Below are positions 30,548-64,000 of a DNA stretch of 64,000 nucleotides, one piece after another. This DNA is from a virus (taxonomy: Duplodnaviria; Caudoviricetes). The translations under genes were made by a program, and so were the position numbers. Where the stretch lies: positions 32,001-96,000 of IMG/VR virus record IMGVR_UViG_3300035498_000621. One strand, 5' to 3'. Each line of letters starts with the position of its first letter. Position 1 is the first letter of the stretch. The notes under the pieces were generated by a model. That model was not told where the DNA came from. It did no database searches and saw nothing but the letters and a program-made list of their open reading frames with translations.

Positions 30548-30548
30548 T

Positions 30549-31971: not shown

Positions 31972-31975
31972 ATAG

Positions 31976-32029: not shown

Positions 32030-32210
32030 AAATTATATAATAAAAGTCTTTTCTATTTAATATATCTAAATTATTTGCATCACACCAAAAATCTTTATTA
32101 TTAAAAACTAAAATATTTCTACCATAATCCCATTTAAATATTCCTTCGAAATTAGGAAGTTTTATTAATTTTCCTAATTTTGCTTTAGGTATTATTTCAA
32201 AATATGTCAT
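32028..32210 (-). CDS. Small protein, DUF2829/Tad2-like; last gene of the minus-strand operon
   Basis: MTYFEII.KAK.GK.IKLP.F.G...DIL.R.DF; TAATG-coupled to the upstream gene; no in-frame TAG. Confidence 0.55.
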   Translation of the reverse strand: MTYFEIIPKAKLGKLIKLPNFEGIFKWDYGRNILVFNNKDFWCDANNLDILNRKDFYYII

Positions 32211-35200
32211 TATTCCTATGATTTTCTATATATTGCATGTCCAGTATCTTTAGCAGATCTGCCAAAACCAGTATTATCAAATATTAAATACTTCCAAGTT
32301 TTTTTACCCATAAGTACTTCACCAGTTTCTTTAAGCACTTCTACAGGAGTAGAATAAAATGGAGGATTCATATTTTCTCCAAAAAATTGTATAACATTAA
32401 TTGGGCCTTTAAATTGATCATATGATCTTGAAGATGATTTATATAAAATTTCAGTTACTAAATTCTATAATACTGGATTATCTTTCATTCCTTTTTTATA
32501 TTGTTTGTATGCTGGGTCTACTGCAAATTTAAATAAAGCTGCTAATAAGAATGACATAAGTATATCAGAAATTAATTTTCTCATATTAGCTTTAGCAACA
32601 TCATTTCCTTTTATATATTGATATGTAGCTTTTATTCCATCTTGCTTACACATTCGAGCAGCATCAATAACCGTGTACATAATACCTTGCATAAGTATAG
32701 GAACATTTTTAAGAACAGGAACACCTGTATCTTCGGTAGTTTGTCCGCCATCTTCTGTAAAGAATAAAGGTCTACCTTGCTCATCTGTGTCTTGTTCTGA
32801 AAATAATTTAGATACACCATTTTTTTGAGGTTTCATAAAATATGTATTTACAATACCATTCATCCAAGTAGTAAACATACCAAATAAAGTTCCTAAACAC
32901 ATATTTTCAGACATTGCTTTTTTACCTTTATCGTATGAACCATATATATTATCACCAACTGCACGAATACTCATAATTTCTCTATTAGAATATGGAGTTG
33001 GAAGGTCACCATCAGGTTCTATTGGAGATTCGGGGTGTTCCTAATTATATTCACGTATTTTAGATAAATATAATGAACGTTGTTTTTTATAATCAGGATG
33101 ATTAACGTCTTTAGCTGCTAATCTGTCAAATCGTTTATCTTTTTTCCAATCATAAACAAGGTTATTATCATCATCAATACTATATGCATCCCATACGCCA
33201 TCATGCATACATTTAGCTACAAATAAAGTCATTCTATTTAAAAAATCAGGACTTCTTAAAGTTCCATACATCCAATTATCATAATTAAAAATACCATTAC
33301 GACCAGATTTTGCTCTTTCTGTAATACGACCTACATCAGTATTAGACAAACGATATTTTAAACATAATTTACTTAATAAATTAACTGCCATAGCATTAGA
33401 TGTAGCATGAGTCATAACATATTGATATGCTTTTCTAACAGAAGCAGGATCAATATCTGTATTTAATTTAATAAGAGAACGAATAAAATTTTGTTGAATA
33501 CCTTCAAAGGCATCTCTAAACATTGAAACTACATTACCTCCAAGAAGCATATTAGTTACTACATGTTTAACAGGTTGTACATATCCAACAATTGCTTTTT
33601 CAGTTTTACTCATAATAGATGTATTAAATACATTTACTTTTAAATAGTCTTGTATATATTTAACTTCTTTTTCGACTACTTCTTCATTTCCAGCAAAATT
33701 TCCAGTTAAATGTAATTGTAAAAGTAAAGCTTTAGAGGTAACAAGAAGTTTATTAAGTTGAACAGTTGAAATATGTTTAGCTAGAAAATCTATCATAATA
33801 TTTTCAACATTTGTTTCAAAAAATTCTGGACCATATCCATTTTTTCTATCTAACATTTGTGCCCTCTTTTTAGCAATTTCTGTAGTAGAACTATTACTAA
33901 ATGGAATGCTAACTGAAAATGGATTTGTTAAAGTCATTTTATAAAATTTATCATTATCATTTCCTAAAAGTTCACGTTCTTCTTCAGTAAGATTATTAAC
34001 AAATTCATCAAATGCTTCACTAGCTTTTGTCATTCTTTTCCATGTATTTTTCATTTTAGCAGTAATTGCTTTTGCACTCTATCTAGAAGTAGCTTTTGAT
34101 GCTCTTTCTAATGGAACCCACAAATATTCTTCATGAGCTTTTATATATTCAGGAAGTCTACTATCATTAAAATCATAAGGAAATTTTCCATTATGAGTAA
34201 TCTATGCAATTTGATACAATATTGGTTTAAGCAATTCTCTTTCATGAGGTTTTAAATCATTAGACATATCATATGGATTTTTAAATATCATAAGATTTTC
34301 TCCAGTCATTGTATCTCTTTGATATAAATTATTATACTATTGAGCCTAATTACCAATAGACATATTCTATGCAGCAGTATATCCTGTTTCAGAATAGAAT
34401 TTATCAAATATTGGTCTAACATCTTTATCAAATGTACTTAAGAATTCCGAAGCAATAGTATCATGTGTAATTTGCAAATTGTTAACGACTATTCTAATAT
34501 TTGGATCAGGTACAGTAGCAGCTGTAAACAAATTTTTATTAACTGGATCAAGTTCAGTCTAATATGTAGGAGTTTCTCCAGATAAATTAAGATATGCTTT
34601 TGTTACTAAATCATATAAAATAGCCATATTTCTAGTTTGAGCACTTCCTTCTGTTAAAGTAGTCTTAAAATATTCAGGATCAGCAAATCTTTTATGTATA
34701 TCAAGAATTTGTGTCATTATATATTGCAATGCTTTCATTTGTTCATATTTAGTTTGAGCATTTTCAAGCTAATCAAATCCAAATTCTTCATATTCTGCTT
34801 TTACTTTGTCTGATTTTTTATCAACAATTTTAAGATATTCTTCTAAAATAGCTTCAACAGGATCTACAAATTGAGCAGCTCTAAAATTATTTTCTATTTT
34901 TAATTCATTATTTTCTACAATAGAAATAATAGGCTAAAAATATGTTTTATTAAAATGTGCAATATCAAATTTTCTAAAACTAGAACCTTCAATAGAACTT
35001 AATACTCCTAATGTTCCTAATTTTACATCACCTAACTAAGGTAAAATTTCATTAAGAAGTTCCATTGTTCTTACAGCTTCTATATTACCATAATCACCTC
35101 TTAAATCATTATATTCACCATCAAATTTATGACTTCCTAAAATATTTGTACCTTTTTTAAATCCAGCCTAAGTATTTAAATCAAATGCTGTTAATGATAT

Positions 35201-36772
35201 AATATCAACTACATTATCTTCATTTTCAAAAATAAGTACATTAGCATCAATTAAATCTTTTTTCAATTTCCAACCAGATTCTACAATTTTTCCTTCTGAA
35301 TCTAATTTAGGTAAATATTTATTAAATACTGCATTTAATGTAGTAGCAGAACCTCTTAAACCTTGTATTTTATCAAACATTGGAAATCCATGGTCATAAC
35401 TACTTTCAATTGCTTCTTTTAAACGTTGAGTAGAATAACCTTTTGCATCATCTAAATCAGAAATATATTGCTCTACAACTTTACGTATTTCTTCATTATT
35501 ATTTTTAGATTTAGCTGACTTAATTGTGTGTACAGTTCCATTTATAATAACATCGTAAGCATGATCAGGTTCTCCAACTTCTTTAATTACTAACTATTCA
35601 GTTCCAGTTGGATCAATATTAGGAGCAGCTTTAATCCATGCTCTAGCTGATCTTGCAATACCTTCTGTTCTTATATTAAATTCTGGAAATATTGCTTTAT
35701 TTACTTCATCAGCTCGTTCTATAGGCTTATCAGAAATATGAAAAGGAATAGTAGAACTTTTTATAAAAGCTTTTGCTTGATTTTCAAATTTATGCATCGC
35801 ATATTCAGCATTACTGTGTCTAGTTGAATATACTTTAGTTGGATGAATTGTAACTTTATTTACTTTAGAATAATCTGTATTATATTCTAATTGTACTGGA
35901 ATAATATTAAGAGTCATATTATTAACTTTTAATCCTTTACTAGCTAACATTTGTTTAAGAAATGCAAGTTGATATTTATATTTTTCCTCTTTTGTATTAG
36001 CCCATGTTTTTGGATCAGAAGCTGTAGTTTTAAATAAATAAAGATGTAATGTTCCATCTTCTCCGACAAATAGATAATCTATATGTCCAAGAATTTCTTC
36101 ATCCAATCCTTTAATTTTAGTAATAAGATTAATATTTTTAAAAGCTTTACTTCCACTAATTTTTCCTTTTTCTTTTTTATAAGTATTTTTTAATTCATTA
36201 AATAATTCTGTAAGTACACCAACACTATTTAAAGATTCAGGAATATCATTTTTAACGCTATTTATAAAATCTACATCAGTAGCTGTTTTATTTTGTATAT
36301 TTTCATTTACAAATAGTTTATGTAAAGCAAAAGAATCTTTTTGTATTTGTTCCCAACTTTTTATTATTTCAGCAACTTTTTTCTCTGCTAATTCTCGATC
36401 CATATCTTTAGATAATATATCTATTTGTCTTTTTATATAGTCTTCTCTATTAATAGGAGTAACAAGACGATTACCAGAAGGAAGAGTACAAGATTCACTA
36501 TCTATAAAATCAAGAATAGTTTTAGCTCCTTTTACTTGTGGTTCTCCATTTACTAATGAAGAAACATTAGCTGCTATATCAATTTTAGGAACATATTCAG
36601 CTTTTAATTCTTTAATTTTTTCTATCTATGCTGTTTGAGAAGCAACTCTACTATATACTATATCTGAAATCTTAAGCTTTTTAAAATCAAGATTTAATGT
36701 ATCTAAATGATTTAATAATTCAGTATATGAATTAAATGTCTATCCTTTTAATATATATTTACAATTAACCAT
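32210..36772 (-). CDS. Large virion cargo protein (~1520 aa, TAG read as sense) with a degenerate PD-(D/E)XK-like domain
   Basis: Fragments 32465, 33041, 35168 and 35594 share one frame and end in TAG; ATG at 36772 (MVNCKYILKG), TAA at 32210; GHIDYLFV..LYLFKT..KYKYQLAF. Confidence 0.85.
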
Positions 36773-39209
36773 AACATTGTTCTTTTATTTCACCTTCTCT
36801 AATTTGTTTAGAAATCCAATTTGAATACATACGTGATGTTTTTGTATTTGCAAAATCTAATCCTTTTGTCTAAAGTAATTGAGCTACATCAGAATTAAAT
36901 CTTGTAAATACAGATTCAATAGTTTTACCATAAAAGGATTGTAAATCATCTATTTCATTATTAAATATTATTTTAGTAGCATCTTTCATAAATCTATCCT
37001 AAGATATAAATATTTGTCTTAAATTTGGATCTATAGTTCCCATAACATAATTACTAAATTTTTCAACAAATATTTCTTCCATAAGATCCATTTCAGATAC
37101 TTCATTATATTTTCTTCTAAATCTATCTATTTCTTCTTTAGATAATTTACTTGCAACTAAATACATTAATTGTTCATAATTTTTTCTTAAATTAGGATCT
37201 GTTTTTAATACTCCTAATATTAAGTGAGAATATTCATGAAGTAAATCTGAAGATGATGCAATTGTAGTATTTATATAAATTTCATCATCTTTAATAAATG
37301 CTTTAGATGTATTAGCATTTATTTCTGGAAATTTTTTAGATATTTCTTCTGCTGATAGCATATTTATTTGTACTTTAAAATTTTCTTTAAGTACATCTGA
37401 AATTGCATTCATTAAAAGAATTATTGGAGTTCTTTTCTATTTTTTATATTCATCAATTTTAATAGCATCAGTAGGAATAATTCTATAATAATTTTTATTT
37501 TTACCTTTAATAAAACCTTTAGATTCAATATAATATGCTTTTTTAGGAGCATTATTAATCATATCAACAATTTTCTACATTGTAGAATCCTATCCAGTAC
37601 GTTCTCCAGATGGAACAAGTTCATTTAATTTATAAATAAATATTGTAATTTTTTCAGCATTATCTACTGTTTTAAAAATATTATTTTTAGTTTCTTCTGA
37701 AATATTCCATCCATTTACAATTTTTTTAAATGATGATAAATTTTGTCTGTCTTCTCTAAAAAGTCTATCTTCTCCATTTAGAATTCTAGTTCCTTCAACA
37801 ATAGGAACATCTAACGATTCTATAATAGATCCAACAATTAATGATTGTGAAGTATATAAAGTATATGAATCAAGTTCATCAGTATATTTTATTTGACCAT
37901 CATCATCTTTATAACGATCTCTATATTTAAATTCAAGAAATGCATTCTTTTTAATATCCTATTTTTCAACAGCACTGTCAATATATTTTCTTACCTCTTC
38001 TTCAGAATCATATTTTTTAACTTGATGTTGTTCAGTAAGATACCCTCTAGATGGAATAAATACTTCTTTTTCATTTTCTAAAAATTTATATATTTTATAT
38101 CCTTTATAATCTTCTTTATTAATTATGTCAAATGTATGAATAGTATCATATGAAATTCCATATTTTGATAAAATTGATCTAGGAACAGATTTTAAAAGAA
38201 TTCCTTGATTTGAATTACTTACATATTCTAAAGTAAAGTCAGGTTCTGCTGAAAATAAAGATTGTAATAATGTATAATATCCATATGATTCTTCATTAAC
38301 TTCATCAAATACTTTTGATAATTGTTCTTTTGTTTCTGATGCTGGTTTAGAAAAGAAATTATTAAATTTAGTTTTAGTATCTAATTTTAATTTTTCTAAA
38401 ATTTCTGGATGATAATTTTTTACTGCTGCAAATAAACCATCTAAAGTTAAATATTTTTTATTATTATCAAGATGTGTTATTTGAAGATTAATTGTATTTA
38501 CAAATTCGTCAGAATATGATATTCTATTACTATACTATAAAATAGTATTTAATGTTTTAGTTAAAATAGAATATGCACTACGATTATCTATATATATATC
38601 TTGATATTTACTTCTATTATAATGAAAATCTAGCATTAAATCAAAAATATTATCAATTTTTTTATTATTCTTATCAACTTTTTTATTTTTTTCAATAAGA
38701 ATTTTTTGTAAATCTTGATAATAAGCAGAAGTTTCATCAAAATTAAAAGATTGTTCTTCTAATTGCTATCGCACTCTTAAAAATTCAGCTAATTTCTAAA
38801 CATCTTCTTTAGTACCTTTTACTATAAATAATTCCTTACCTTGTGAATTTATAACTCTATTATAAATACTTCCGCCTTTTGTTGGTAATGTTAATTTATC
38901 TATTAACAATATATTAGCGTCTACATTTTCAGGAAAATCTACAGTATCAAATTCATGTTTTAAAAAATCTAAAGTACAATTTCCTATTAATCCTTCTTTA
39001 TTAATAATATTATTTAAAGAAACTTCTCCTAATTTAGATTGCTTATATAATTTATTATAAATTGAATCACATAATGTTGTATGCTTATCTTTATTATTTA
39101 TAAGAGCGTTTAATATGTCTTGATCAGTAAGTGTAGAAGGATCTGAATCTGTTTCCAGATCCAGATCTATTTCTTCTCCACCAACTGTAAATATTACTTT
39201 ACATTTCAT
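36765..39209 (-). CDS. Virion protein (~814 aa, TAG read as sense) with a C-terminal zincin-like HExxH domain
   Basis: Fragments 36999 and 38796 in frame; ATG at 39209 (MKCKVIF), TAA at 36765; LLHEYSHLI..MEEIFV. Confidence 0.82.
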
Positions 39210-42200
39210 TTGCAAATTTTCTATAATTGTATTGTACCTTGTCTTAATAACTAATTAATGGCATCTATAGTTTTATCAGTAATATTTCTTAAATTATCAA
39301 CTAGTTTATTAACTGTTTCTGAATAAACTCCTCCAAGAGTGAAATAACTGTTCTAATTATATATTCTAGCTAATGTATCATCTTTTGTTTCGCCATCAAC
39401 TTTAGGAACTATTTCACCAAATGGAACATATCTACCATTTTGTCTAATCATAAGAACTGGTCCATCTTCGGTATTTACTATAATAGTTGGATCTTTCTAT
39501 CCAATTTCAGAATTAACTATAGCAGCAGCTTCTTTCATCAAGTCAATAATACTAATTTGTAAATCTTTTTCTGAACCTTTATAGTCTAAATCTCCAACAA
39601 ATTGTAGATATTTTTTTATGAGTGAAAGTTGTCCAGTATTCTATATAAATGAATCAAATAATGTAGTCATTCTATCTGAACCATATTGATTTTTATTTGT
39701 AATTAAATTATATAAAACAAATATATCAGATAAAGATATACCATTTATTTTAATTTTCTATAATTCCTATAATCCTTTTATATATTTCTAAAATTTAACT
39801 TTACTATTAGGAGAATTTTCAATAGTAAGCATATCTATATCACATTTATATAAAGGCATATCGTGATCATCTCCGTTTATTAAAGACTATATAAATTCAT
39901 TGCTCATTAAAGATTTATCCTCAACTACAATATATTCTTTTTTATTTCCTTTTTTCTAAATATCAATATATTTTCCTTGTTTAAGCATTGGAATTATAGA
40001 ATTTTCAAATAACTATTTAAATGATGCTATATCACTTAAAGAATTAAATTCTATTTCTCCATCTTGTGCAGCTGGAATAACCTATCTTAATTCATTTAAA
40101 AGGCTAGATCCTTTTTTATATGGAATTTTAATATCTAACTGATTTACAAACTTAGCAATAATAGCATTATCTATTGCTTTTAATAGTCTAGTTTGCCATT
40201 CTTTAGACATATATCCAACTTTATATTCACCTTCTTTTAATTCTTTATAAACAACATCAAATTTTTTAGTTTTAATAGAAATATTATGATCAATATCTAG
40301 TACAGCTGAAAAAATTTCAAAAATACTATGAAATTGAGGAATCTAATCTATTATTTCAAAAATATTAATACACAATTTAACTTTATCATATCTATCTATT
40401 ATTTGTTGTTTATATTCTTCATCAGTGAATAATTTTTTAACATCGAGAAGTTCACCTTTAATTCCCATTTTCTCTTCTCTATCACTTAATATTTTTTGTA
40501 TAAATTGAATTCTTTCTTGTAAATCAGCTTTTGAAGTAGGTAATCCTTGATTAAATCCAAGAAGTCGTCCAAAATTACTAAATTCATTTGCTCCTTCAAA
40601 GATATTTTCAAATTCATCTATATCTTGTGGAATACTATTTAAAATTTCTTCTCGAATTTCTTCTTTGTTTCTTTTAGTAGCTTTATATATTGCTTCTACT
40701 TCAGTATCTATTACTGATTCTAATATATATTTAATTTCTTTAATAGCATTTAAAGCATTTTCGAATTCAATAAATTCTTTACTACCTTTTGGAAAAGTAT
40801 TTTCAATTCCTTCAGTAATGCCTTGTTTTAATTTCTTTTTAATTTCAGAAGTATTGTCAAGATTATTAAGTTTAGATAAAGTTCTATTGCTTAAAAATGA
40901 ATAATAATAATCTTTATAGTTACCTCTTGCAATTTTTATTGCATCTTGAATACTAAGATTCTATCCAGTAAATATATTTTGTTCTGTAATTGTATCAATA
41001 AATGATACTATAGGACTAGTCATAAATTTTACAATATCTTTAATATCGAATCCTAAAGTAACCATAAATAAATACATTTTAGCTAATTTATTACCCGCAT
41101 TAACCTTTGCTAATATTAGCTCTTTTGCATTCAATTTTGTTAATCTTATACTTTCATATAAGTTCAGACCATATCTTATTCTTAAATATTTAAGAATCCT
41201 CGCACTTCGGAATTACAATTCCTACTCTACTAAGTTCAGAATAAATTCTGCTTTTCGATGGTCGTTGCTCCTTTTTCCTTTTATAGGAAACTTGGATCAG
41301 GATTGTCCAATCTTTAACCTTATTACCATACCTGAATAATTACTTCAGCCACATAATATATTACTATTTATGCTTGGTAGTTAAAGCTCTAAGGATTTTC
41401 CCTGAGTTCACGAGGTATTTTATCCTACAGACTCTGCTTGTAATACATCTAAGTATTTGAGCTTATAATACATAGATGGCAGCATATATGGAAAAATTAA
41501 TTTTTCAAACTTTAGTCTTGATTCAGATTTAATATATATTTGAAATTGATTTAAATTATGTTGAATAGTACAATTTATTCCCCATTTTTTGATTAACCAC
41601 ATACATAATAGTTCATTTTCTTTCAGAGAAAAACAATGAGTAGCAAATATTCCATTATAAGTTCCATCATCCATAAACCAATATGCTAATGCTATAGGAT
41701 GATGTATTGTATCAAGATATTCTTGAGTTAAAACTTTTTTATTGTTAGGATAAAGTTCATTGTATATTTTAGTAAAAACAGGATGGGATTTACTATTTCC
41801 TCTCCATGACTTATATACTTTTCCTGTTCTAGTATCTAGATTTGATGTGTACAATTTATATGATCCCATAAATTCTCCAAGAATTTCAACTTTCTTAAGA
41901 AATAATTCTTCTTGTTTATTACTATGTACTAATGCAAGTCTAGAATTTGTATGTCTATTAAAAGTAGGGTTAGATAAATTTAAATCCCCTAATAAACTTC
42001 CTCTAATAAATTGGTCTTGAATTTCTGATAGAAATTGCTCAGTTTGAGAAAAATTTCTTATAATATTAAATTTTCCAGCATTTTCTCCTTTAGTTCTATA
42101 AGTTCTTATAGTAAGTTCTTTTACTCCAAAGTATTCTGCAATTTCTTTATCAGATTTACCTTCATTCCAAAGTTTTTCAAAAGTATCTTGATCTATTTGT

Positions 42201-51200: not shown

Positions 51201-51843
51201 CACCATTTTTTCCTCGATATAAACTTTGTGGAACTTCTGATAAATCATATCCTTTACTTTTTAAAAATTTTCTAATGATTTTAAATTGTTCATCTTGATA
51301 ATCCATTATTCCTTGATTTACATCATCTTGATTATCAACAATTCTATGCTCGCTAATATCTATAATTGTCCTAATGCGCATTTCATCATTAAAATTAGTT
51401 TGTCTCTAATCATTTATAGCAGTACTATCACCATAAATTTCTTTAAGCACCTCATTAAGTTCTAATTCTCTGCGCTAATCTTCAGTAATTAAATCAGAAC
51501 CGGCTATATTTGCCTAAATATATTCTTCAACTTTAGTTAATGGTTTTGGAAGTAATTCTTCTTGAAAATATTTTCTTATTTTATTCTTTACAGATCTGTT
51601 TAATTTAATAGGAAGATTTTCTTTTGCATCTAATTTTTCTATGATAGTTTCAATTAATTCATTTATACTATCTTGATAAGATTCATGATTATCAGATGAA
51701 TCAAAACTAATGCTGAAGGTTTTACCCTCCAGCATAGTTTTAATATTTTCTAATATTTCATCTAAATTTTCTCCTTTCAAATCAGAAAAATTTAAATCTC
51801 CTGAATGTAAGGCTTTACTAAAATTTGATTGTTTACAACTCAT
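39206..51843 (-). CDS. Virion DNA-dependent RNA polymerase (~3314 aa, TAG read as sense); exons 51843-44895, 43504-42435 and 41131-39206
   Basis: Splicing restores SRIPAQ..HWQTWLQGSDYDIDK (catalytic DxDxD) and LSAATDNAKEL; all fragments within each exon share a frame; ATG at 51843, TGA at 39206. Confidence 0.9.
41420..42358 (-). CDS. Intron-encoded LAGLIDADG homing endonuclease with N-terminal HTH repeats
   Basis: RGSLLGDL and ALAYWFMDDG motifs; likely start MKKISEE at 42358. Confidence 0.88.
   Translation of the reverse strand: MKKISEETIGKIKELYDQGLSNLKIAKELGIGNQTVSKYLKERFGIEKKKYVKQIDQDTFEKLWNEGKSDKEIAEYFGVKELTIRTYRTKGENAGKFNIIRNFSQTEQFLSEIQDQFIRGSLLGDLNLSNPTFNRHTNSRLALVHSNKQEELFLKKVEILGEFMGSYKLYTSNLDTRTGKVYKSWRGNSKSHPVFTKIYNELYPNNKKVLTQEYLDTIHHPIALAYWFMDDGTYNGIFATHCFSLKENELLCMWLIKKWGINCTIQHNLNQFQIYIKSESRLKFEKLIFPYMLPSMYYKLKYLDVLQAESVG
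42382..42413 (-). promoter_or_regulatory. Intron-internal Bacteroidetes-type promoter for the LAGLIDADG endonuclease
   Basis: TTTG, 20-nt spacer, TATATTTG on the minus strand, about 25 nt before the ATG. Confidence 0.7.
43691..44803 (-). CDS. Intron-encoded homing endonuclease: tandem HTH repeats plus C-terminal Vsr/DUF559-like nuclease
   Basis: Three HTH-like repeats; LRFDYYLP..ILIEIQGKQHY..KDNIK..WC. Confidence 0.85.
   Translation of the reverse strand: METKRKSPTKITDELIAKLKELVESGMKNTDICAELGIGTTTLTTYKKKYNIKYVKPTAEDYKKEIISLYQSGISVKDICSKLGYKSQTTIKNILNKYNVESNRDKEYKKLKEDIIKITPNCLSAYEVAKKVGCAPTTARKYIKELNLNLKVKTHLSDDDISNIVLEPLKYDFNEDISKISNADKKEFIVNKIKHIIVNTREYVSILILKNYNINSSLLNYYGIRLPDLNAEFGLISKYSSALEAYFAGFCDKYGILYESQKTFDDCVYKDKLRFDYYLPEFDILIEIQGKQHYEINEKFGGESFLLEQQEKDNIKVNWCKEHNKQLYVICYKDLYKKDYLETLLSQVLVAKSKSGELLGTPEVDNQQPS
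44837..44868 (-). promoter_or_regulatory. Intron-internal Bacteroidetes-type promoter for the second endonuclease
   Basis: TTTG, 20-nt spacer, TATATTTG on the minus strand upstream of ATG 44803. Confidence 0.7.
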
Positions 51844-54800: not shown

Positions 54801-57800
54801 AACTCGTACATGTTGAGTCATTTGTTCATAGTTTTTTCTTTCATCAAGATCAGACTATGCAATTTCACCTTCATTTCCAGAACTATTATCTTGCGAAAAT
54901 TCTTTTTCATCAGTTAATTGATCAACAGTTGTATTAGTGCCTTTAATTTTAGGCGAAGGAGGTTCTTCAGGTTTTTCTTCAGGTTTTACTTCTGGATTAG
55001 TAGTAGCTTCTTCCTCTTCTGCTTTTACATTAGATAAAGCCTGGTCTATTTGCTAAAGTCTTGTCTATCTAAATTTTTCAATAGCTGGTTTAATATCATT
55101 AGCTTTTCCAGTAAATTCATCCTGTATATTTGAAATAAATTTTGAAAGTCCTCTATCTATTAAAATAGTTCCTTGTCTACTTCTACTTATCATAGTATAA
55201 AGATCTTTCATAAAATAAACTAAATTTCTACCTTTTTTAGCAAAATCAGAGTCATCAAGATTTAATTTCCAATCTTTATCTATAACTACATAATCAAATT
55301 CCCTACCTTGTACTTGTAAAGGATCAATAACAACTACATTTTTTCCAGCATCTTTTAATTGTTTATAATATTCTGAAGATTCAGTTCCAATAAAACCTAT
55401 AGGATTTTCATCATCAGAATTGAGCTTTGCGATTAATTCTGGACTAATTGAGTCAGTAATTAATTCACCAGAAAATTCATCGCCATCATAATATTTAAAA
55501 ACAAACTGTTTAAAATCCTCATCAAAAATTTTCTTACTAGCTTCTATAAGTTCATCTTCTGTAGTAGCAAATTGCAACTAATCTATAATATTAATTGTAG
55601 ACTATAGATTATGTATTTTCTAAACATTATTATCTCTAAGAGAAATAAATAAATTAGGAGCTCTCCAAGCTAGTACAGATTCTCTATCAAAATTATACAT
55701 TAATCCATTAGCTCTAAATCCATTTTGATGATCATCTCCTAATAAAATTACATTAATTTCATTTTCTCGCGCAAATTTACTTATTATTTGTAATTCTACA
55801 GTATTAAAATGTGTTGCTTCGTCAATTATTATTAATTTAGGGGCGTTTTCTATTTTATTTACTTTAACAGAATCTTTTAATACACAAGTTGTATTTTCAA
55901 TACCTGATTCTTTAACATAATATTTTCCATTAGTTTTATCAATCCATTTATTTTTATCTACATCGTATTTTACACTAGTTAAAAATTCATCAGATTGTGC
56001 TTTTCCAAGCATTATTTCGAACATCTCTTCTTTAGACATTCCTTTTCCTTTTGGAAGTGTTTTTAATAAACCTTCTACTTGTGAAGAAGTAGGACCAGAC
56101 AACCAAGTATTTTCTCCATTATTAGTAGATAATTTTGTAACTGCATAAGTTTTTCCGGCACCGCCTACACCAGTTATAACTGTTGTATTATATAATACAG
56201 GAGCTTTTAATTTAAGTAAATCATTTCTTAAATAATCTAATGCTTGATTAATTAATTCTGGATTTTGTTGCTATGCTTGTGATAATTTTGCTACATATTC
56301 CTAAAGAGATAATGGTGCTAAATTTTTATTATTATTAATAAATTCTTTTAATTTAGTATAAAAACTAGCATCACTTAATGCAAAATTACTTATAAGTAAT
56401 GCAAATTTATCATAATCAGTTAGTTTAGAATAAGTAATAGTTTCATCAAGTTTTGATGTTATTTGATATTTTAAAGAACTAATATTTACTATTTTTGGAA
56501 GTATTGCATCTAAAATTTCTTTTAATGTAGTTCCATTTTTTGTAAATTTTTTATAATTTCTATGTAATAATTCTTCTATTTGAACAATACTAGATAATGA
56601 ATTATCTAAAGCTAGATCTTCATAACCATCAAGTAAATCAAGAGTTGGGCTTATTTTAAAAGCTTCTCTATTAACTTTATAAAATTCTAATCTTGCTTTA
56701 TTAAATGCTATATCACCATCAATAAATTTCTAAACTTTATCAGCTGTATTTTTCTAATGACGTTGAATCCAACGAGTTATTTCTTTTTGATAATTATTAG
56801 CTTCATTAATTAAAAAATTTCCAAGTTCTTCTGTTATTTCTGGAAGAGCTTTAACTTTACCAAATACATCAGAATGATTAGCTACAAATTCATTTATAGA
56901 TTTATTATGTCCAACTGGATTATCATAACTAGATTTAGAAGAAGCAGCATGTATAAAAGCTTTTGCCATTTCTAAATCTTCTTTAAAATATAATAATGCT
57001 TGAAATTGAGGTTCAGTTAATTGAAATTCTTGGGCACTTGCTCCTTTTGCGTACTATTGATATATTTCTTCAAGAACATCTTCTATATTAATATCACTAT
57101 TTCTAATTTTTTTTGATATTTGTTTAATTATAGGAAGAATTGGATTATTTATAAAAGAAACAGCTTCTAAATTATCAAGAGCTTTTAATGATTTATCAGA
57201 ATTTAAATCTTTAAAAATTTTATCCTTTAAAAGTTTTTTAATTTTATCAAAAGATTCTTTTGAAGCTGTATCTGTAAGAGTATTAATATAACCTTCAGTT
57301 ATTTCTACTACTTCGTCTCCTTCCTCACTATCAAAACTTGTAAGACCACTTTGAACACGATTATAAAAATCAATTATTTCATTATTAACTAAACCTTGAC
57401 TTTCTTTTGTATCAAAACTAAATTCATAACTTTCTAAAACATCAATAGCATCATTAACTGTTACTCCAGTATTTCCTTTACTTTCTTGATTTTTTATCCA
57501 ACTATCTATCCAAATATACATATCTCGTTTAGTTAACGGAGCTTCTGGATAATCACCAGTAATAAATTCTAAATCACCTTTAATTGTATCCCATTGGTCT
57601 AAATTAAGACGACCTTTATACTCCTAAATAAACTAAGCTTTTATTGATTCAGATATAGCATTTTGAATTTGTTTATAAAGTTCTTTTCTATTTTTTGGAT
57701 CAGGTCCAATAATTTTAATTATATTCTATAATTTCTATTGAAGTTCTGGATTATTTGGAATTTGTAATTGTTCAATAATATTATCGTAAACATTTTTTCT

Positions 57801-60800
57801 AAGAAGTCCAAGTGTAGCTTGAATAGTTCTAAATGTATTTTTATCAATTGGAATTTGACTTAATTCATTAATCCATTCATTTAAATGATCATTATTATAT
57901 TTTTCTATATCTTCCTATCTTTTTTGTTTTCTTTTCTTAAATTGTTCTTCATCTTCTCCTTCTTTTTTAATATGACGATATTGATAACTTTCATCAGATT
58001 CTCCTTCTAATTTAGAATCGTATGTTAAATATCTATTAAAAGGATCTAATTCAGCAATTTTTTTAAATTGTTCTATATCTTTAGATAAATCTTTATCTGC
58101 AAGTTTTTCTATTTCTGGATTAAGTTTAGACTGCATTTCTTTAAATAAATTAAATGCCTAATCCAAATCCATTCTTTTAATTTTAGAATATTCTTCGTAT
58201 TTTTTATTATAATAATCTTTTTCTGATTCAGTTAATTGAGAATATGTTTTACCAGTTGCATTTCTAATAAACTAATTTTTTGTAAGAGTCACAAATTGTC
58301 CACAAAGATTAGTATCTATAGCAAATAACATTTTCTCTACATAACCAAGAGAGCCTTCTCCAAACAAATAATCCTTTTGTTCAATTAAGTCTTGTTTTTC
58401 TTTTCTTAATTTGTCTAATTTTTCCTAAAATTCTGGATTATTACGTTTAGCAGGATCAGAAGTAGTATTTAATAGTTCGCTTATTTCTGATTCTTTATTA
58501 ACTATTTTCTAAGTAAGTTCCTAAAAATCTTGCTAATATTTAGTAATATAAGAAACTTCTTTTACATTTTCTTTATCGCCTTTTAAAAAATCAGTAAGTG
58601 CTGTAGCTCTATATTCACCCTAAACCATTTTATCAAATAATTCATCTTCTGAAAGATTTAATTGATTCTCATTAAGAATCATATCTAATTGATTAATGGT
58701 TTTCTTTAATGTATCATATACATAAGAACTCTAAGATTTATGATTTGCATCTGCTGATAAATAAACAGTTTTTCCATTTTCATCAGTTGTAGTATCATAA
58801 GATAAGTCCTTACTTCCTAATTTTCCTTTTTTCTCAAGTTTATCAAGTTCAGCAAAAATTTCATCTTTTTTACCCTATCTAAGTAAATAAGTAATTTCAT
58901 TTTGTATATCACTTGTTTTATTATTTCTATTACGAACAAGTTCTGCTCCATAGAATAAACCGCCACCGGCAGCACCTCCTAAGAATGACATTGCATATCT
59001 ATCGAAAAAATTTTCCCCAGCACCATAATCTGTTTGAGAAAAATATCCAAGTTTTCCAGCAAGTTCACCCATATATTTAGAAGCATCAGCTACTAATTCT
59101 TCTGAAACTTCTTCTAAACCTTCACCTAAAGATTTACCAACAAAACCAAGACTTCTATCTTTTATAGCTCCTCGATAATCAGAAACAGCTTTCTTTCCAG
59201 TCTATATGCCTTTTTGAATAAGTCCAATTATACCTTTTCTAGTTTGAGTTTCAGCTTGACGTATTCCTGCTGACTCCATAAGTAAATCAGCATTATGTCT
59301 AGCTGATTCTCTAATGGCACGTCTAGATGGTTCATCATTAAAAAACATTTCACCTAAACCAAGATATTTATCAACTCCAAACATACCTATAGTACTTCCT
59401 AATGCAATAGCAGCAGCTTCTAATGGAGTTCCTCCTTTTTCTAATACTGATTGATATACATCTGTATTAGATATAATTGCCATATATACTAAAGAAAGAT
59501 CTTGACCCATTTTCATTCTAGATTCAGCAATTTTCTATGCAGCAGGAAGATATTTATTTAATGCAGCTTTACCAAAAGCTGTTTCCATCCATTTTCCTTC
59601 ACTAAACATTGCTTTTAATTCTAATGGATTATCTGTTCCAATAAACTGTGTTAATTTATCAGCAGAAAGTTTACCACTATAAAAATCGTCAAGACTTGAT
59701 TTTGCTCTTTTAATATATTCATTTTGTGCTTTAGCATATGCAGTATTAACAGCACGCTCTCCGCCATTTGCTAATTTAGAAAAAGTATTTGCAATAACTT
59801 TTTGTTGTCCCCATTGTAAAGCAACATCAGACATTAAATTACCAAAATTTTCAAAACTAAAAGTATTTCCTTGTGCATAATCAGAAGTACTTCCAGTAAA
59901 TTTTTCTCCATATGCAGCAAGAGTATTTGCTAATTTAGAATTTACATCATCAGCTCCAGAAAATCCCATAGCCATACCATAAAGCATAGGTAATGATTTA
60001 CTCATTTCTCTAGCTACTAATAATCCAGAATATGCTGTACTAACATAAGGAATAAAAATTGGAAGAACAGCAGCAATATTTTTAGCTATAGTTCCACCTA
60101 CTGATTTTTCTAAATCATCAGAATCAAAAAAATCATATTTATTTGAAGAACTATTTTCAGAAGTTAAATAGTCTAAAGAAGATACAACTTGTTTGCCCAT
60201 TAATGAGCGACCATTTAATTTTTCTGTATAATATTCTCCAAATTCATTAACTTTCCATTCTCCTTTTTGATGTAAAGTTTTTCCAGTTTTTTCATCGACT
60301 TCATCTTCATCATATGTTGCATATACAATAGGATCATCAAATAAAGATTTAAAATATTCAATAGGACTTTCAAATAATGATATATCATTTACTGATTTAT
60401 CCAAATAAGTATCAGTTTCAGGATCATAAATTTTACTATCCTAAGCAAGTTCTCTACGAGATTTATTAGATTCAGACATTTCATTAAATCCAGATATACC
60501 TATAGATATATGTTCTGGATTATCTTGTGTTTGAATAGCAAAATTTGGATTTTTTATTTTTCCATTTTTGGGACGCATAACATCCCACATATCATATTCA
60601 TAATTATCTACAATATTTTCTGTACTAAACTTTGCAAATTCAGAAGCAGCGTTATTATAAAATTTATTAAATAAATCTTCTGAAAATTCACCTTTATCAT
60701 TTTTAAATCTATCATTTTCTCTAATATATCTACTTTTTAGATATTGATCTTTAGACAACAACTAAGTGTTGTCTAAAGACATATCTGAAATATATTGAAA

Positions 60801-60860
60801 ATCCCCAGCATCGAATGTAGGATTATTTAAAGTGGCTACAATCCAATCATTTTCTTTCAT
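51840..60860 (-). CDS. Giant virion/ejection protein (~3006 aa, TAG read as sense) with hydrophobic helices and an SF1 helicase domain
   Basis: 15 fragments (52002 to 60441) share one frame; ATG at 60860 (MKENDW), TGA at 51840; TGVGGAGKT, IIDEATH, LLGDDHQ, VQGREFDYVVID and YTMISRSR. Confidence 0.85.
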
Positions 60861-62761
60861 TGTTCTAATTCTTTACTTTTACTAGATCCAAAATTATCTT
60901 GTTTTTTCCACGTCTAAGTAGCTTCTTCTAAATCATATGACGTAGACATCTTTATATCATTTTCATCAGCATTCATTCCATTTATAGGATTATTAGATAT
61001 TGGAATATATATATTTCCTTTATAAATATTGTCTCTTCCCCATCCATACCATGGATTTTTAATTTCATAGTTACCTCTATCCTTATTACTTAAACCAATT
61101 TGTAATAATGAATAAAGTTCAGGATCATCTCCAGCATTTATAAAGAAATTAGATGTAGTATCTTCAATATTAGAAGTTTTATTTTCAGAATTAACAATTC
61201 TTGCTTTATCACTTGTTAATCCTTCTAATATTACGAATCTACCAAAACGATCTTTTCTAGGAAGTCCTTGTGAATCAATCAAATGATCTAAATTAGCATC
61301 AGTTATAAGTTTTTTATACTTATTATTATATTCTTGAGTTCCTTGCTTAAGTCCACTATCTCGCATTTTTTTATCTATAGCTAAATACTCATCAAGAATA
61401 CTAAAATCTACATGACCTTCTTTCATAGGTAATGTAACTACAAACATTCCTGACCCAGCATTAACCATAACATCATTATAACTATTTGTAGAAATTTTAG
61501 CATCACCAAAAGTAATATTGCCTTTACTCTAAATTAAATAGCCAACACCAGATTGAGTTATAAAATCTCCAAGTGAACAATTATTTGAAATTCCAGGAAT
61601 AGCTCCATAATATTTACCAGTAGACGTCATAAATCCTCTTCCTTGTAAAAGATTATAACTACTAGTTTCACCTCCTTGTCCAGCTTGAACTTGACTCCAA
61701 TATCCCATTTTTGGATCTTCATCTTTACTATTTCCAGATGAAGATTTGCCCATTGCGTGATTTATAGATCCTTTATAAGATATTTCAGAAGTTAAAGATG
61801 TTTTATTACCACCAATTAAATACTAATATATTAAATATTCAATAGCTTTTTCTTTTTTATCAGTTTTTAATTTATAAGCAGCCCAAACTTTAACTCTATC
61901 TGGAAGTGTAGATTCTAAATAACTAGTTAAAGCTTTAATTTGACCAAGTTGAGATTCATTAATTATTTTATATTCATATAAACCATCAAGATTTATTAAA
62001 CCTTGTGAATTAATTATTTTTTGAAATTGTGGATTTTCTTTAAGTTTTTCTATTTCTTGCAATCCTTTAGCTGCTTTACTAGTAAATTGTCCACTTATAG
62101 TGCTACTAGTGTCACCAAGACTTAATTTAGCAGAGTCAATTAATTTCTAAAATGATTCAAATCCAACGCTATTATACATAGTATTAAAAACATCATTTTG
62201 ATCTTTAAATTCAGGAATATATTTTCGAAGATAAGCTACATTAGATACAGTTAATATATATTTATCATATGCTTCAGGATTTTCAGCATACTATTCAAGT
62301 GATAATTCTGCTAAATCTCCATCTCCTTTCTATATTAATAAATTTCCTTTTGGAGTAATAGCTGGTTCATGTAATGCGCCATTATTTATTGCAGTTTCTA
62401 ATGCTTTATCATATTCTTTTTTATTATCAACTACGTCTTTTACTTTACGTAATATGCGAGAATATTTTAATGATAAATCTCGTGGAGAAGATCCAGTAAG
62501 ATTTTCCATTACTAAGAAATTATCTATCTAATCAAACAAATAATCTTTTTCATTTTTAAGACCATCCATTTCTTTAACCATTGTAAATAGGTCTTTTATA
62601 GTTATCTTTCCTTTTGTATCTTCATCAGAGTCACTAGATGATTTAGAACTAGATGATTTACTTTTAGTACTAGCTGTACTTTTAGGTACATCTGGAACTC
62701 CAATTGTATCATATATAGTATAAAAAGATGATCCTTTTTGAAGTTTTGGTATTAATTTCAT
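60857..62761 (-). CDS. Virion cargo protein (~634 aa, TAG read as sense)
   Basis: Fragments 60914, 61529, 61823 and 62528 in frame; ATG at 62761 (MKLIPKLQKG), TGA at 60857. Confidence 0.82.
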
Positions 62762-64000
62762 TTTGTTTTTCTAGGAATCAATTTAGATCCTTTTTTGGAA
62801 TAACTAATTTCATATTTTCCATTATATGGATCTGTATAATTATAATTAAATATTCTACTTCTTAGACTATTTAATCTAGCATTATTCATTTGAGTAGCTT
62901 GATCAATCCATCTCTAAGCTTTTTGTCCTTTTGCAGTATTTAAAAATTCTGTAACTGTTTTTCCTTTATTAATTTCTTTTCCAGAATCATCAGTCTAATC
63001 TAACCAAGAATAATAAGATTTATTAAATTTATCTTGAGCCTATTGAACTAATAATGTTGCATTTTGAGTTTCAACATCCTTTTCAAAATCATATTGATCT
63101 TGAAGATTTTCTTTATTAAGATTTTTTCTATACCAATATAAACTTAATAATGCTTTACCATAATTAGCTAAACTTTGTTGATCAGCTTGTCTTTTTTGAG
63201 CTGTATTTTGAGCTTTAGCAAGATTAGAATCAACTCTTTGACTATGATTAAAGAACATATCTTCATCTTTAATTGTCTAAAAATCTTTAACATTTTGCCA
63301 AGATTTTTCTTGTGATTCTCGAACACTTTCATCATAAGCTGTATTAGCCTAAGTTCTTTGTTTATTTGCATTAACATTAGCTTGTAATCTTGTTGCTGCA
63401 CCTAATGAAGCATCACTATAAGTATCAGCAACTCTATCGCCTACATTTTCAGTTTCAGCTGCATTTTCTAATTCATTTTGCCATTTACTATATCTACCAA
63501 CAATTTGTCTAGGAGTAAATGTATGTACTTTCTATTTTGGTTGTATAGCATTATCTATAGTTTCCCAATTTTTTTGATTAGTATGTAATGAATTAAAAAG
63601 CATTGCTGTATTTATTGCTTCAGGAATATAATCTGCAGCATATTGTCCTATTTTATCCCAATTAATTCCTTTTCCTTTATTATCAGGATCACTTCCTCCT
63701 ACAAAATCATCATCAGTATATTGATCATCCTAACCAAAATAACCACTACCATCTCCAATGGTTTTTAATTCTAATTTTTCAGTAGGAATTTGAACTTTAG
63801 GAGTTAAATCAATCATTTTACCTTGTTCTCTTACCCATTGCTTACCATTCCAATAAACTCTATCATCTCCAATATTTAAAACATTATTTCTATTATTATA
63901 AGTTTTTTTTAATCTTTCTAGAAATGCATGTCTATTGTAAGTAGAAGGGCCCATGTAATCATATCTAGTTGTATCATTTCCAAAATATTCATTAAATCCA
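62758..64000 (-). CDS. Virion cargo protein, 3' part (TAG read as sense; runs off the window)
   Basis: Fragments 63040 and 63730 in frame; Ala/Gln/Asn-rich helical sequence; TGA at 62758 overlaps the next ATG. Confidence 0.8.

What the first reader, a model, noticed from the sequence alone, without database searches (positions are those of the whole stretch)
32210..64000. TAG reassigned to a sense codon (probably Gln) across the whole virion-protein arm
Seen: minus-strand ORF fragments fall into long same-frame runs, and every fragment boundary I checked is TAG. Reading through TAG gives six large genes that end in TAA/TGA and tile with 1-8 nt overlaps. Known: amber-to-Gln recoding (table 15) of late genes is described in some crAss-like phages. 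Inference: Gln identity rests on that precedent and on TAG being one transition from CAG. The suppressor tRNA must lie outside this window.
Basis: partly seen in the sequence, partly recalled or inferred. Interest (0 to 1): 0.8.

Follow-up and report, generated by a model that had tools for sequence, protein, structure and literature searches.

The report
Phage late genes read TAG as glutamine

Summary
The phenomenon is already known for this phage group.

- **Genome:** the window is part of a 161-kb Zeta-type crAss-like phage contig.
- **Coding density:** in the minus arm, ORFs of at least 150 aa cover 28% under table 11 and 98% with TAG read through. The TGA and TAA controls give 32% and 42%. 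The plus arm does not change.
- **Stops:** the merged genes hold 138 in-frame TAG and no TAA or TGA. All end in TAA or TGA.
- **Amino acid:** in seven or more related phage genomes, Gln is the dominant residue opposite TAG. The TAG substitution profile matches that of real CAA/CAG codons. Tyr, Leu, Ser and Glu are rejected.
- **tRNA:** a tRNA(CUA) lies 65 kb beyond the window. I found no release-factor or GlnRS gene.

- Three of the ORFs are exons of one 3,317-aa DxDxD (RNA-polymerase-like) gene. Two group I introns split it, and each carries a TAG-free homing endonuclease.
- Recoding extends over about 95 kb.

The tRNA(CUA) is 88 nt. It has a tRNA-Gln body and an extra arm whose loop shows a Gln anticodon (UUG). 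Other agents of this scan noted this design before on other genomes. I verified it on six sequences.

The parts
32210..36772 (-). Gene of 1520 aa with 16 in-frame TAG; ends in TAA. No Pfam or PHROG match. Last gene of the recoded arm.
   Evidence: Aligns full-length, 55% identity, to relative G001 across all TAG sites.
36765..39215 (-). Gene of about 814-816 aa with 9 in-frame TAG. The likely ATG at 39209 overlaps the upstream TGA stop in an ATGA arrangement.
   Evidence: The start is inferred from the printed translation.
39206..41131 (-). Exon 3 (641 codons plus stop, 14 TAG) of the 3,317-aa DxDxD polymerase-like gene.
   Evidence: The junction ...SAATD|NAKELIL is identical to the uninterrupted G001 frame.
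41132..42434 (-). Group I intron 2 (1,303 nt). The upstream exon ends in U and the intron ends in G.
   Evidence: Rfam RF00028 at 41145-41495(-), 52 bits, gathering score 50. Junction bases.
41420..42412 (-). LAGLIDADG homing endonuclease ORF (330 aa) inside intron 2, with no TAG.
   Evidence: PHROG 11023, E 1.7e-15. No TAG.
42435..43504 (-). Exon 2 (1,070 nt, 6 TAG). It begins with the catalytic-type motif QGSDYDIDKAY.
   Evidence: G272, D274, D276, D278 and K279 (numbered in the 551-aa G001 stretch used as query) are invariant in 42 homologs.
43505..44894 (-). Group I intron 1 (1,390 nt), inserted directly before the DxDxD motif. The upstream exon ends in U and the intron ends in G.
   Evidence: Rfam RF00028 at 43559-43755(-), 68.4 bits. 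Junction bases. The spliced reading HWQTW-L-QGSDYDID equals G001.
43691..44803 (-). HNH-type homing endonuclease ORF (370 aa) inside intron 1, with no TAG.
   Evidence: PHROG 559, E 2.2e-21, and PHROG 9084, E 1e-18.
44895..51852 (-). Exon 1 (2,319 codons plus 1 nt, 35 TAG) of the DxDxD polymerase-like gene.
51840..60860 (-). Gene of 3,006 aa with 39 in-frame TAG. It has a P-loop/SF1-helicase-like stretch at residues 1559-1713.
   Evidence: AAA_30, 1.4e-07. Homologs in five relatives have only TAG as internal stops.
60857..62761 (-). Gene of 634 aa with 7 in-frame TAG.
62758..64000 (-). 3' part of a 990-aa gene (12 TAG) that starts beyond the window end, at window-equivalent position 65730.
31975..32022 (+). 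20-bp hairpin followed by a T run, at the point where the TAG-free plus arm and the recoded minus arm converge.
   Evidence: 2 terminator-like sites found against 0.1 expected.

Best explanation
The window belongs to a large crAss-like phage of the Zeta type, a 161-kb contig. The phage keeps its early and replication genes readable in the standard code and writes its late genes in 'code 15', where TAG means glutamine. The late genes include the transcription block, structural genes and other late-block genes.

A phage-encoded tRNA with anticodon CUA is built on a tRNA-Gln body. It is probably charged by the host glutaminyl-tRNA synthetase, and it inserts Gln at UAG in competition with host release factor 1.

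In half of the late genes the first TAG lies within about 37 codons of the start, so full-length late proteins can be made only once the suppressor is active. This gives a translational gate on late expression.

- **Shown:** TAG is the only internal stop. Gln stands opposite it. A tRNA(CUA) exists. Early genes avoid TAG.
- **Inferred:** charging by host GlnRS, competition with RF1, and the timing role.
For: **Only TAG interrupts the frames.**
- The window arm holds 138 in-frame TAG, no TAA or TGA, and coding density rises from 0.278 to 0.980.
- Genome-wide there are 440 in-frame TAG in 61 late genes, 1.4% of codons. Of the 90 ORFs called at 9.5-64 kb, those of the window's plus arm carry no internal TAG; the 25 in-frame TAG counted there lie mostly in one 738-aa gene (12) and in small or doubtful ORFs. 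All ORFs were defined as ending at TAA or TGA.

**Relatives behave the same way.** Their internal stops are 15 to 112 TAG per locus, against 0 to 3 TAA or TGA.

**Gln stands opposite TAG.**
- Codons opposite our TAG: CAA 219, TAG 191, CAG 87.
- Residues opposite our TAG: Q 306 of 986, K 93, E 87, Y 12.
- The reverse tally (our residue opposite relatives' TAG): Q 357, K 153, E 131.
- Likelihood: Q is best. E trails by 52, S by 93, Y by 177 and L by 206 log units.
- The empirical profile of TAG matches that of real Gln codons. The distance is 0.13-0.15, against 0.36 or more for all others. Q-conservation is 0.26 opposite TAG and 0.22 opposite CAA/CAG in the window genes.

**The tRNA.**
- tRNA(CUA) at genome c[160755,160842]; Rfam tRNA score 59.8 bits.
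- It shares U1-A72, A73 and a D-arm one loop base different with the phage's own tRNA-Gln(UUG), and four of five anticodon-stem pairs.
- With any anticodon allowed, the only other viral tRNAs with this D-arm and anticodon stem are tRNA-Gln(UUG).

**Literature.**
- TAG-to-Gln in late genes of Zeta and other crAss-like phages: PMC7886860.
- The late-gene regulation model: bioRxiv 10.1101/2021.08.26.457843.
- Per its abstract, peptide evidence for TAG=Gln in two crAss-like phages: PMC9523058.
Against: - There is no protein-level evidence for this genome.
- The tRNA(CUA) is atypical. It is 88 nt with a long extra arm, which in bacteria is the mark of Leu, Ser or Tyr tRNAs.
- Its discriminator is A73 and pair 3-70 is C-G, not the G73 and G3-C70 of the E. 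coli GlnRS rules.
- Gln codons sum to 4.3% in late genes (CAA + CAG + TAG) against 3.0% in early genes, so TAG adds to CAA rather than replacing it.
- The contig is linear and about 89% complete. A second suppressor or a release-factor gene could be missing.
- All relatives used are themselves TAG-recoded.
Confidence: 0.93

Rival explanations
1. TAG is read through but as another amino acid. Tyr, Ser or Leu would fit the tRNA's long extra arm (the class II shape). Glu or Lys would fit as near neighbours of Gln.
For: - The tRNA(CUA) is 88 nt with a roughly 20-nt variable region.
- Its anticodon arm is identical, except for base 34, to a relative's tRNA-Tyr(GUA).
- Other agents of this scan report Leu- and Glu-type amber suppressors in other phages (unchecked notes).
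Against: - Opposite TAG, Tyr is 12 of 986 residues and Leu is 34 of 986, both below background. Ser is at background level.
- Log-likelihood deficits against Gln: Y 177, L 206, S 93, E 52, K 66.
- Profile distance is 0.47 or more for all residues but Gln across all genes.
- The D-arm, the 1-72 pair and the discriminator match the phage's tRNA-Gln, not class II tRNAs.
Confidence: 0.03
2. TAG means Gln, but the 88-nt tRNA is not the decoder or not the only one. A canonical 72-73-nt tRNA(CUA) in the missing ~11% of the genome, or a host factor, does the decoding, and the long-armed tRNA has another role.
For: - Relatives G002, G004 and G005 carry a 72-nt tRNA(CUA).
- Three Zeta-type relatives carry a 73-nt and an 89-nt tRNA(CUA) in tandem.
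- The contig is linear and 89% complete.
Against: - ARAGORN finds one tRNA(CUA) among 14 tRNAs in the 161 kb held.
- L080, L081 and L083 show only the long-armed form in 11-15 kb of strongly TAG-recoded DNA.
- The anticodon arm is invariant across six diverged members, as expected for a working decoder.
Confidence: 0.1
3. The arm consists of decayed pseudogenes or assembly errors, or the in-frame TAG codons encode pyrrolysine.
For: ARAGORN labels the tRNA 'Pyl', but that label follows from the anticodon alone.
Against: - Only one of the three stop codons interrupts the frames.
- The same pattern appears in every relative examined, at partly shared sites (191 TAG-TAG columns).
- Similarity runs unbroken across the TAG sites.
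- The tRNA has a 5-bp anticodon stem and a 20-nt variable region, unlike tRNA-Pyl (established knowledge).
- Columns opposite TAG show Gln. I did not search for pyl genes.
Confidence: 0.01

Closest known systems
Zeta-group crAss-like phages with late-gene TAG-to-Gln recoding (Yutin et al. 2021, PMC7886860; proposed family in PMC12386605)
   Same: - Genome size within the 145-192 kb range.
- TerL and portal of crAss type.
- TAG recoding confined to late genes.
- A phage-encoded suppressor tRNA.
- A transcription block of giant proteins with a DxDxD motif.
- Introns carrying LAGLIDADG endonucleases.
   Different: Nothing essential differs. In this genome the disruption at the DxDxD motif is fully explained by a bounded group I intron. 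Yutin et al. suspected additional unknown expression mechanisms for Zeta RNAP genes.
Stop-codon recoding as a late-gene and lysis gate (Borges et al., bioRxiv 10.1101/2021.08.26.457843), with the abstract of Peters et al. 2022 (PMC9523058) reporting metaproteomic evidence for TAG=Gln in two crAss-like phages
   Same: - Early genes compatible with the standard code and late genes recoded.
- A suppressor tRNA is present.
- No phage synthetase, so reliance on the host GlnRS is inferred.
   Different: I found no release factor 2 gene. There are no proteomic data for this genome.
E. coli supE, the tRNA-Gln(CUA) amber suppressor (textbook knowledge)
   Same: A tRNA-Gln body with anticodon CUA that inserts Gln at UAG in competition with RF1.
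   Different: The phage tRNA has an extra hairpin between the anticodon arm and the T arm. Its 7-nt loop shows UUG or CUG followed by A. The discriminator here is A73.
Homing-endonuclease-bearing group I introns in phage genes (Rfam RF00028; examples in crAss-like phages in PMC7886860)
   Same: - Rfam score above the gathering threshold.
- U at the exon end and G at the intron end.
- An endonuclease ORF inside.
- An intron-less allele in a relative.
   Different: Both endonuclease ORFs are free of TAG although they sit in a heavily recoded gene. A third endonuclease ORF elsewhere in this genome (217 aa, weak HNH match) does contain 3 TAG.

Membership tests
Code-15 (TAG=Gln) recoded phage | Conserved genes are interrupted by in-frame TAG only and terminate at TAA or TGA | tested here: met
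   138 TAG, 0 TAA and 0 TGA in frame; terminators 6 TAA and 4 TGA; coding density 0.278 to 0.980
Code-15 (TAG=Gln) recoded phage | Homolog columns opposite TAG are dominated by Gln | tested here: met
   Q 306 of 986 (window genes 84 of 337). Q is best by at least 27 log units (window) and at least 52 (all genes). The profile equals that of real Gln codons
Code-15 (TAG=Gln) recoded phage | A tRNA with anticodon CUA is available | tested here: met
   Genome c[160755,160842], outside the window; Rfam tRNA 59.8 bits
Code-15 (TAG=Gln) recoded phage | Peptides with Gln at TAG positions | not testable with these tools
   Requires (meta)proteomics, as in PMC9523058
Crassvirales, Zeta group | crAss-type TerL, portal and major capsid protein, with a genome of 145-192 kb | tested here: met
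   PHROG 6681 TerL 4.6e-66; PHROG 6547 portal 7.1e-41; PHROG 11589 MCP 1e-10. TerL is about 27% identical to named crAss-like phages. The contig is 161 kb at 89% completeness. I built no TerL tree, so the Zeta placement is inferred from size and features
Crassvirales, Zeta group | Transcription block with a giant protein bearing the RNAP DxDxD motif | tested here: inconclusive
   The motif GSDYDIDK is present and invariant in 42 homologs. The fold test gave no RNAP match by Foldseek, VIA-align or a PDB profile search
Group I self-splicing intron | Match to the catalytic core model | tested here: met
   RF00028 at 68.4 and 52 bits, gathering score 50. The matches were lost by the speed filters when 32 kb or more was searched at once
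Group I self-splicing intron | The exon ends in U, the intron ends in G, and removal restores the conserved frame | tested here: met
   The spliced peptide junctions are identical to the uninterrupted G001 gene
Group I self-splicing intron | Splicing observed in RNA | not testable with these tools
   Needs RT-PCR or an in vitro splicing assay
tRNA-Gln (GlnRS substrate, E. coli rules) | Weak or absent 1-72 pair, G2-C71 and U35 | tested here: met
   U1-A72, G2-C71 and U35 here. In other family members 1-72 is A.C, U.U or U-A
tRNA-Gln (GlnRS substrate, E. coli rules) | G3-C70, G73 and G36 | tested here: not met
   C3-G70, A73 and A36 here. The phage's own tRNA-Gln(UUG) also has A73. Three of six family members have G3-C70. 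The host's rules are unknown
tRNA-Gln (GlnRS substrate, E. coli rules) | Short (class I) variable loop | tested here: not met
   A roughly 20-nt variable region with a 3-4-bp stem and a 7-nt loop

The most novel reading that the evidence does not exclude
The suppressor is a 'two-headed' tRNA. A tRNA-Gln body reads UAG with its CUA anticodon arm, and a conserved extra hairpin displays a genuine Gln anticodon loop (UUG here, CUG in five other members, followed by A).

The extra arm might restore or sharpen recognition by the host glutaminyl-tRNA synthetase, which normally reads G36. It could serve some other purpose instead, such as competition with RF1 or escape from host tRNA nucleases.

The design occurs in at least three phage groups, two of which show no TerL similarity to this phage. 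Most carrier loci tested showed clear TAG recoding. I found it in none of the papers I could search. Other agents of this scan have already noted it on other genomes.
Probability: 0.3. Interest if true: 0.7.

Novelty: new member of a known kind. Interest (0 to 1): 0.3.

Why it matters
**Annotation.** Under table 11 this 95-kb block falls apart into fragments. Under code 15, with two intron excisions, the window yields six coherent genes, one of them a 3,317-aa polymerase-like protein.

**Biology.** The genome adds one more well-documented Zeta-type example of late-gene amber recoding. For this genome, recoding plus ordinary group I splicing is enough to explain a polymerase gene 'broken' at its catalytic motif. 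No unknown expression mechanism is needed.

**The open point.** The extra-armed suppressor tRNA bears on a real unanswered question: how a host synthetase that reads the anticodon accepts a tRNA whose anticodon has been changed.

Tried and rejected
- **Class II identity (Tyr, Ser, Leu).** I considered it because of the long arm and the Tyr-like anticodon arm. The residue tallies and the Gln-type D-arm and acceptor end reject it.
- Not diagnostic, because TAG adds to CAA rather than replacing it.
- **Sequence context around TAG.** Only mild biases appear (C at +4 is 0.15 against 0.09 after CAA). TAG codons are spread evenly along the genes. I draw no mechanistic conclusion.
- **RNA polymerase identity of the split gene.**
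  - phmmer against PDB found nothing.
  - A profile search against PDB found nothing.
  - An AlphaFold model of the DxDxD region (pLDDT 77) gave no meaningful match with Foldseek.
  - VIA-align wide gave only generic helical hits with Z below 6.
  - Identity therefore rests on the motif, size, synteny and the literature.
- **PHROGs and Pfam on the window's giant proteins.** Nearly blank, apart from one P-loop hit.
- **Rfam on long stretches.** These searches missed the introns because of the speed filters. Absence of further introns is therefore not shown.
I could not check which full-length library homologs are encoded in the standard code, and I did not use library proteins in the tally, to avoid circularity.
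- **Phage-encoded factors.** I found no release-factor gene (PF00472) and no Gln/Glu-tRNA synthetase gene (PF00749).

Full report
**1.

Under table 11 the minus strand of 32210-64000 contains only short ORFs, 370 aa at most. With TAG read through, the same frames fuse into ORFs of 1520, 816, 642, 349, 2319, 3006 and 634 aa, plus a 990-aa ORF that runs off the window end. These hold 16, 9, 14, 6, 35, 39, 7 and 12 TAG codons.

Across the ten ORFs of the arm there are 138 in-frame TAG and no in-frame TAA or TGA. Six ORFs end in TAA and four in TGA.

The fraction of the arm lying in ORFs of at least 150 aa is 0.278 under table 11 and 0.980 with TAG as sense. With TGA as sense it is 0.323, and with TAA as sense 0.420. 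The plus arm (1-32000) stays at 0.677 whether or not TAG is read.

In the two other frames TAA plus TGA occur at 4.9% and 15.6% per codon. A 3006-codon frame free of them cannot arise by chance; my arithmetic from those counts gives below 1e-60. Similarity to relatives runs straight across the TAG sites. For example, residues 1-1520 of the first gene align in one segment at 55% identity.

**2. Genome context**

The window is positions 32001-96000 of a single 161,412-bp viral contig. The contig is linear and CheckV rates it 89% complete.

Recoding is genome-wide in a block. The 61 genes between 64.2 and 160.6 kb hold 440 in-frame TAG, which is 1.4% of codons. Among the 90 ORFs called at 9.5-64 kb, those of the window's plus arm carry no internal TAG. 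The 25 in-frame TAG counted in that region lie mostly in one 738-aa gene (12 TAG) and in small or doubtful ORFs. Under table 11, only four plus-strand ORFs of at least 60 aa in that region end at TAG.

The hallmark genes outside the window are of crAss type:
- TerL: PHROG 6681, E 4.6e-66, 9 TAG.
- Portal: PHROG 6547, 15 TAG.
- Major capsid protein: PHROG 11589.
- A tail protein: PHROG 5302.

TerL is about 27% identical to named crAss-like phages and 57% identical to unannotated human-gut phage contigs.

The following features match the Zeta group of crAss-like phages described in PMC7886860 and PMC12386605:
- the genome size;
- 24-27% G+C across the window;
- late-gene TAG recoding;
- a transcription block with a DxDxD protein;
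- introns carrying endonucleases.

I did not build a TerL tree, so the Zeta placement is an inference.

**3. Which amino acid**

I translated all genes with X at TAG and aligned them by tblastn to DNA loci from at least seven related phage genomes. These relatives have TerL identity of 45-74% and transcription-block identity of 25-59%. I read the codons directly from the DNA, so no gene caller's code enters the tally.

| Measure | Result |
|---|---|
| TAG sites aligned | 222 |
| Codons opposite TAG | CAA 219, TAG 191, CAG 87, AAA 57, GAA 53 |
| Residues opposite TAG | Q 306 of 986 (31%), K 93, E 87, S 73, L 34, Y 12 |
| Background Gln in the first alignment set | 2.9% |
| Window genes only | 124 of 138 sites align; Q 84 of 337 |
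| Reverse tally (our residue opposite relatives' TAG) | Q 357, K 153, E 131 |

A likelihood that gives each site total weight 1 puts Gln first. Across all genes Glu trails by 52 log units, Lys by 66, Ser by 93, Tyr by 177 and Leu by 206. Within the window, Gln leads Glu by 27.

As an internal control I compared the residue profile opposite TAG with the empirical profiles opposite each of the 20 sense amino acids in the same alignments. TAG is closest to Gln. The total-variation distance is 0.15 in the window genes and 0.13 across all genes. The next best is 0.36 (window) and 0.47 (all).

The fraction of Q opposite TAG is 0.26 in the window genes and 0.31 across all genes. Opposite this genome's real CAA/CAG codons it is 0.22 and 0.36. 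TAG therefore behaves as a Gln codon.

Relatives' internal stops are almost only TAG: 15 to 112 per locus, against 0 to 3 TAA or TGA.

**4. The decoder**

ARAGORN finds 14 tRNAs in the contig. One has anticodon CUA, at c[160755,160842], 65 kb beyond the window end. Rfam scores it at 59.8 bits as a tRNA. I found no RF-1-domain gene and no class Ic synthetase gene. Charging by the host enzyme is therefore inferred, as in the Borges preprint.

The tRNA is unusual. It is 88 nt long and has a roughly 20-nt variable region, which made me test Tyr, Ser and Leu seriously.

Its body, however, is of the Gln type:
- It has U1-A72 and A73, like the phage's own tRNA-Gln(UUG).
- Its D-arm differs from that tRNA's at one loop base.
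- Four of the five anticodon-stem pairs are shared.
- When I searched the viral collection for this D-arm and anticodon stem with any anticodon, the only other hits were two ordinary tRNA-Gln(UUG) genes.

Relatives G002, G004 and G005 carry a plain 72-nt tRNA(CUA).

Pattern searches found the long-armed form in other large viral contigs. There are six distinct sequences in all:
- Three Zeta-type relatives carry it in tandem with a 73-nt tRNA(CUA). Their TerL is about 50% identical to ours and holds 14-17 in-frame TAG.
- Two contigs have no TerL similarity to ours. One of them is clearly TAG-recoded, with coding density rising from 0.35 to 0.93.

Across the six sequences the acceptor and T stems covary: nine pairs carry double changes. 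The anticodon arm and the extra arm are conserved.

The extra arm is GCC, a 7-nt loop, then GGC. Its fourth pair toggles between C.A and U.G. It also appears in the minimum-free-energy fold of our copy alone.

Following a lead from notes of other agents of this scan on other genomes, I checked the loop. It reads C-U-UUG-A-A here and N-N-CUG-A-R in the other five. The central triplet is always one of the two Gln anticodons, followed by A.

What the arm does is unknown. That it helps the host GlnRS accept a tRNA lacking G36 is a hypothesis. Its geometry is not obviously compatible with the normal binding mode. I found no description of this tRNA design in the papers I searched.

**5. What the arm encodes, and a correction**

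The two TAG-free ORFs inside the arm are homing endonucleases. ORF 41420-42412 is a LAGLIDADG type and ORF 43691-44803 an HNH type.

In relative G001 the homologs of ORFs 44893-51852, 42417-43466 and 39206-41134 form one uninterrupted frame of at least 2,533 codons, with 47 TAG and no endonucleases.

Rfam finds group I introns above the gathering score at 43559-43755(-) (68.4 bits) and at 41145-41495(-) (52 bits).

Alignment to G001 and the raw bases fix the junctions:

| Segment | Window coordinates (5' to 3' on the minus strand) | Note |
|---|---|---|
| Exon 1 | 51852 to 44895 | Last base U |
| Intron 1 | 44894 to 43505 | Last base G |
| Exon 2 | 43504 to 42435 | Last base U |
| Intron 2 | 42434 to 41132 | Last base G |
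| Exon 3 | 41131 to 39206 | Ends with the stop codon |

The spliced reading gives ...HWQTW-L-QGSDYDIDKAY... and ...SAATD-NAKELIL..., identical to G001. The three exons sum to 9,954 nt, which is 3,317 codons plus a stop, with 55 TAG.

Intron 1 sits directly before the DxDxD motif. G272, D274, D276, D278 and K279 (numbered in the 551-aa G001 stretch used as query) are invariant in 42 homologs. Full-length homologs in the protein library are 3,100-3,800 aa. Many other library proteins end at, or begin just after, this same site, and G005 has a 1-kb interruption there. The insertion site therefore recurs.

Yutin et al. noted that Zeta RNAP ORFs are disrupted even within DxDxD and suspected unknown expression mechanisms. 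In this genome, TAG=Gln plus two ordinary group I introns suffice.

The polymerase identity itself rests on the motif, size, synteny and the literature. My fold and profile tests were inconclusive.

**6. Mechanism**

*Shown:*
- TAG is the only internal stop.
- Gln stands opposite it.
- A tRNA(CUA) of Gln type is encoded.
- The genes of the window's plus arm carry no internal TAG.

*Inferred, from the Borges model and textbook amber suppression:*
- Early genes are translated under the host's code.
- Once the suppressor accumulates, it competes with RF1 at UAG, and late proteins can be completed.
- In half of the late genes the first TAG lies within about 37 codons of the start, so unsuppressed translation would abort early.

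The major capsid gene has no TAG, where about 7 would be expected at the late-gene rate. Its orthologs in five relatives have 0, 0, 1, 1 and 3. This fits selection against a slower or leakier codon in the most heavily expressed late gene, which is also an inference.

**7. Verdict**

The finding is correct and well supported. It describes a phenomenon already published for this phage group, with peptide evidence in relatives (PMC9523058). It is a new member of a known kind.

The less ordinary item is the extra-armed suppressor tRNA. It lies outside the window and has already been noted by this scan on other genomes.

Noticed in passing
outside the window: genome c[160755,160842] = L006:13556-13643(-): The only tRNA(CUA) found is 88 nt. 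It has a tRNA-Gln-type body and an extra hairpin whose 7-nt loop reads CU-UUG-AA. Five other distinct family members in other phages show CUG in that position. The arm is conserved while the acceptor and T stems covary.
   Followed up: yes
L049:355-521, L052:4619-4785, L055:192-358: Three TAG-recoded Zeta-type relatives carry two tRNA(CUA) genes 5 nt apart: a 73-nt ordinary one and an 89-nt extra-armed one. Why they have two suppressors for one codon is unexplained.
   Followed up: partly
L051:422-508 and L053:3201-3287: A different 87-nt tRNA(CUA). It has G1-C72, a larger D-arm and a variable arm without a Gln-anticodon loop. It sits in a tRNA array that also encodes tRNA-Tyr, tRNA-Ser and tRNA-Leu. 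It may be a class II suppressor that inserts another amino acid.
   Followed up: no
window 41420-42412 and 43691-44803 (-): Both intron-borne homing endonuclease ORFs contain no TAG although the host gene has 55. Another endonuclease ORF in this genome (genome 8052-8705, weak HNH_3 match) has 3 TAG.
   Followed up: partly
outside the window: genome 116771-118198(-) = L004:5572-6999: The major capsid gene (475 aa) has no TAG, against about 7 expected at the late-gene rate. Orthologs in five relatives have 0-3. Neighbouring ORFs at genome 113732-114694 and 115815-116678 are also TAG-free and have no family match.
   Followed up: partly
G005:C1:79266-80290 (L072/L079) and many library proteins: The polymerase-like gene is interrupted at the same pre-DxDxD site in G005 (a gap of about 1 kb). 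Many homologs in the protein library end at query residue 269-276 or start at 283. The intron insertion site therefore recurs.
   Followed up: partly
outside the window: genome 13444-13528 and 3041-3120: ARAGORN calls a tRNA-Thr(UGU) of 85 nt and a tRNA-Glu(UUC) of 80 nt. Both are over-long for class I tRNAs.
   Followed up: no
window 30302-30583 (+): This is the only ORF of at least 60 aa in the window's plus arm that ends at TAG under table 11 (81 aa). Read through, it runs 12 codons further, across a second TAG, to TAA. I did not test whether it is a real gene.
   Followed up: no
outside the window: genome 6253-7602 and 14940-17156 (+): Two ORFs of 449 and 738 aa among the tRNA genes carry 5 and 12 in-frame TAG and have no Pfam match. 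Recoded genes therefore also lie on the 'early' side of the contig.
   Followed up: partly
window 31975-32022 (+): A 20-bp hairpin followed by a T run lies where the two arms converge. It is probably a strong terminator.
   Followed up: no
window 41000-45100: Rfam's group I intron matches (68 and 52 bits) appear only when about 4 kb is searched. They vanish in searches of 32 kb or more because of the speed filters. Other introns in this genome may therefore have been missed.
   Followed up: partly
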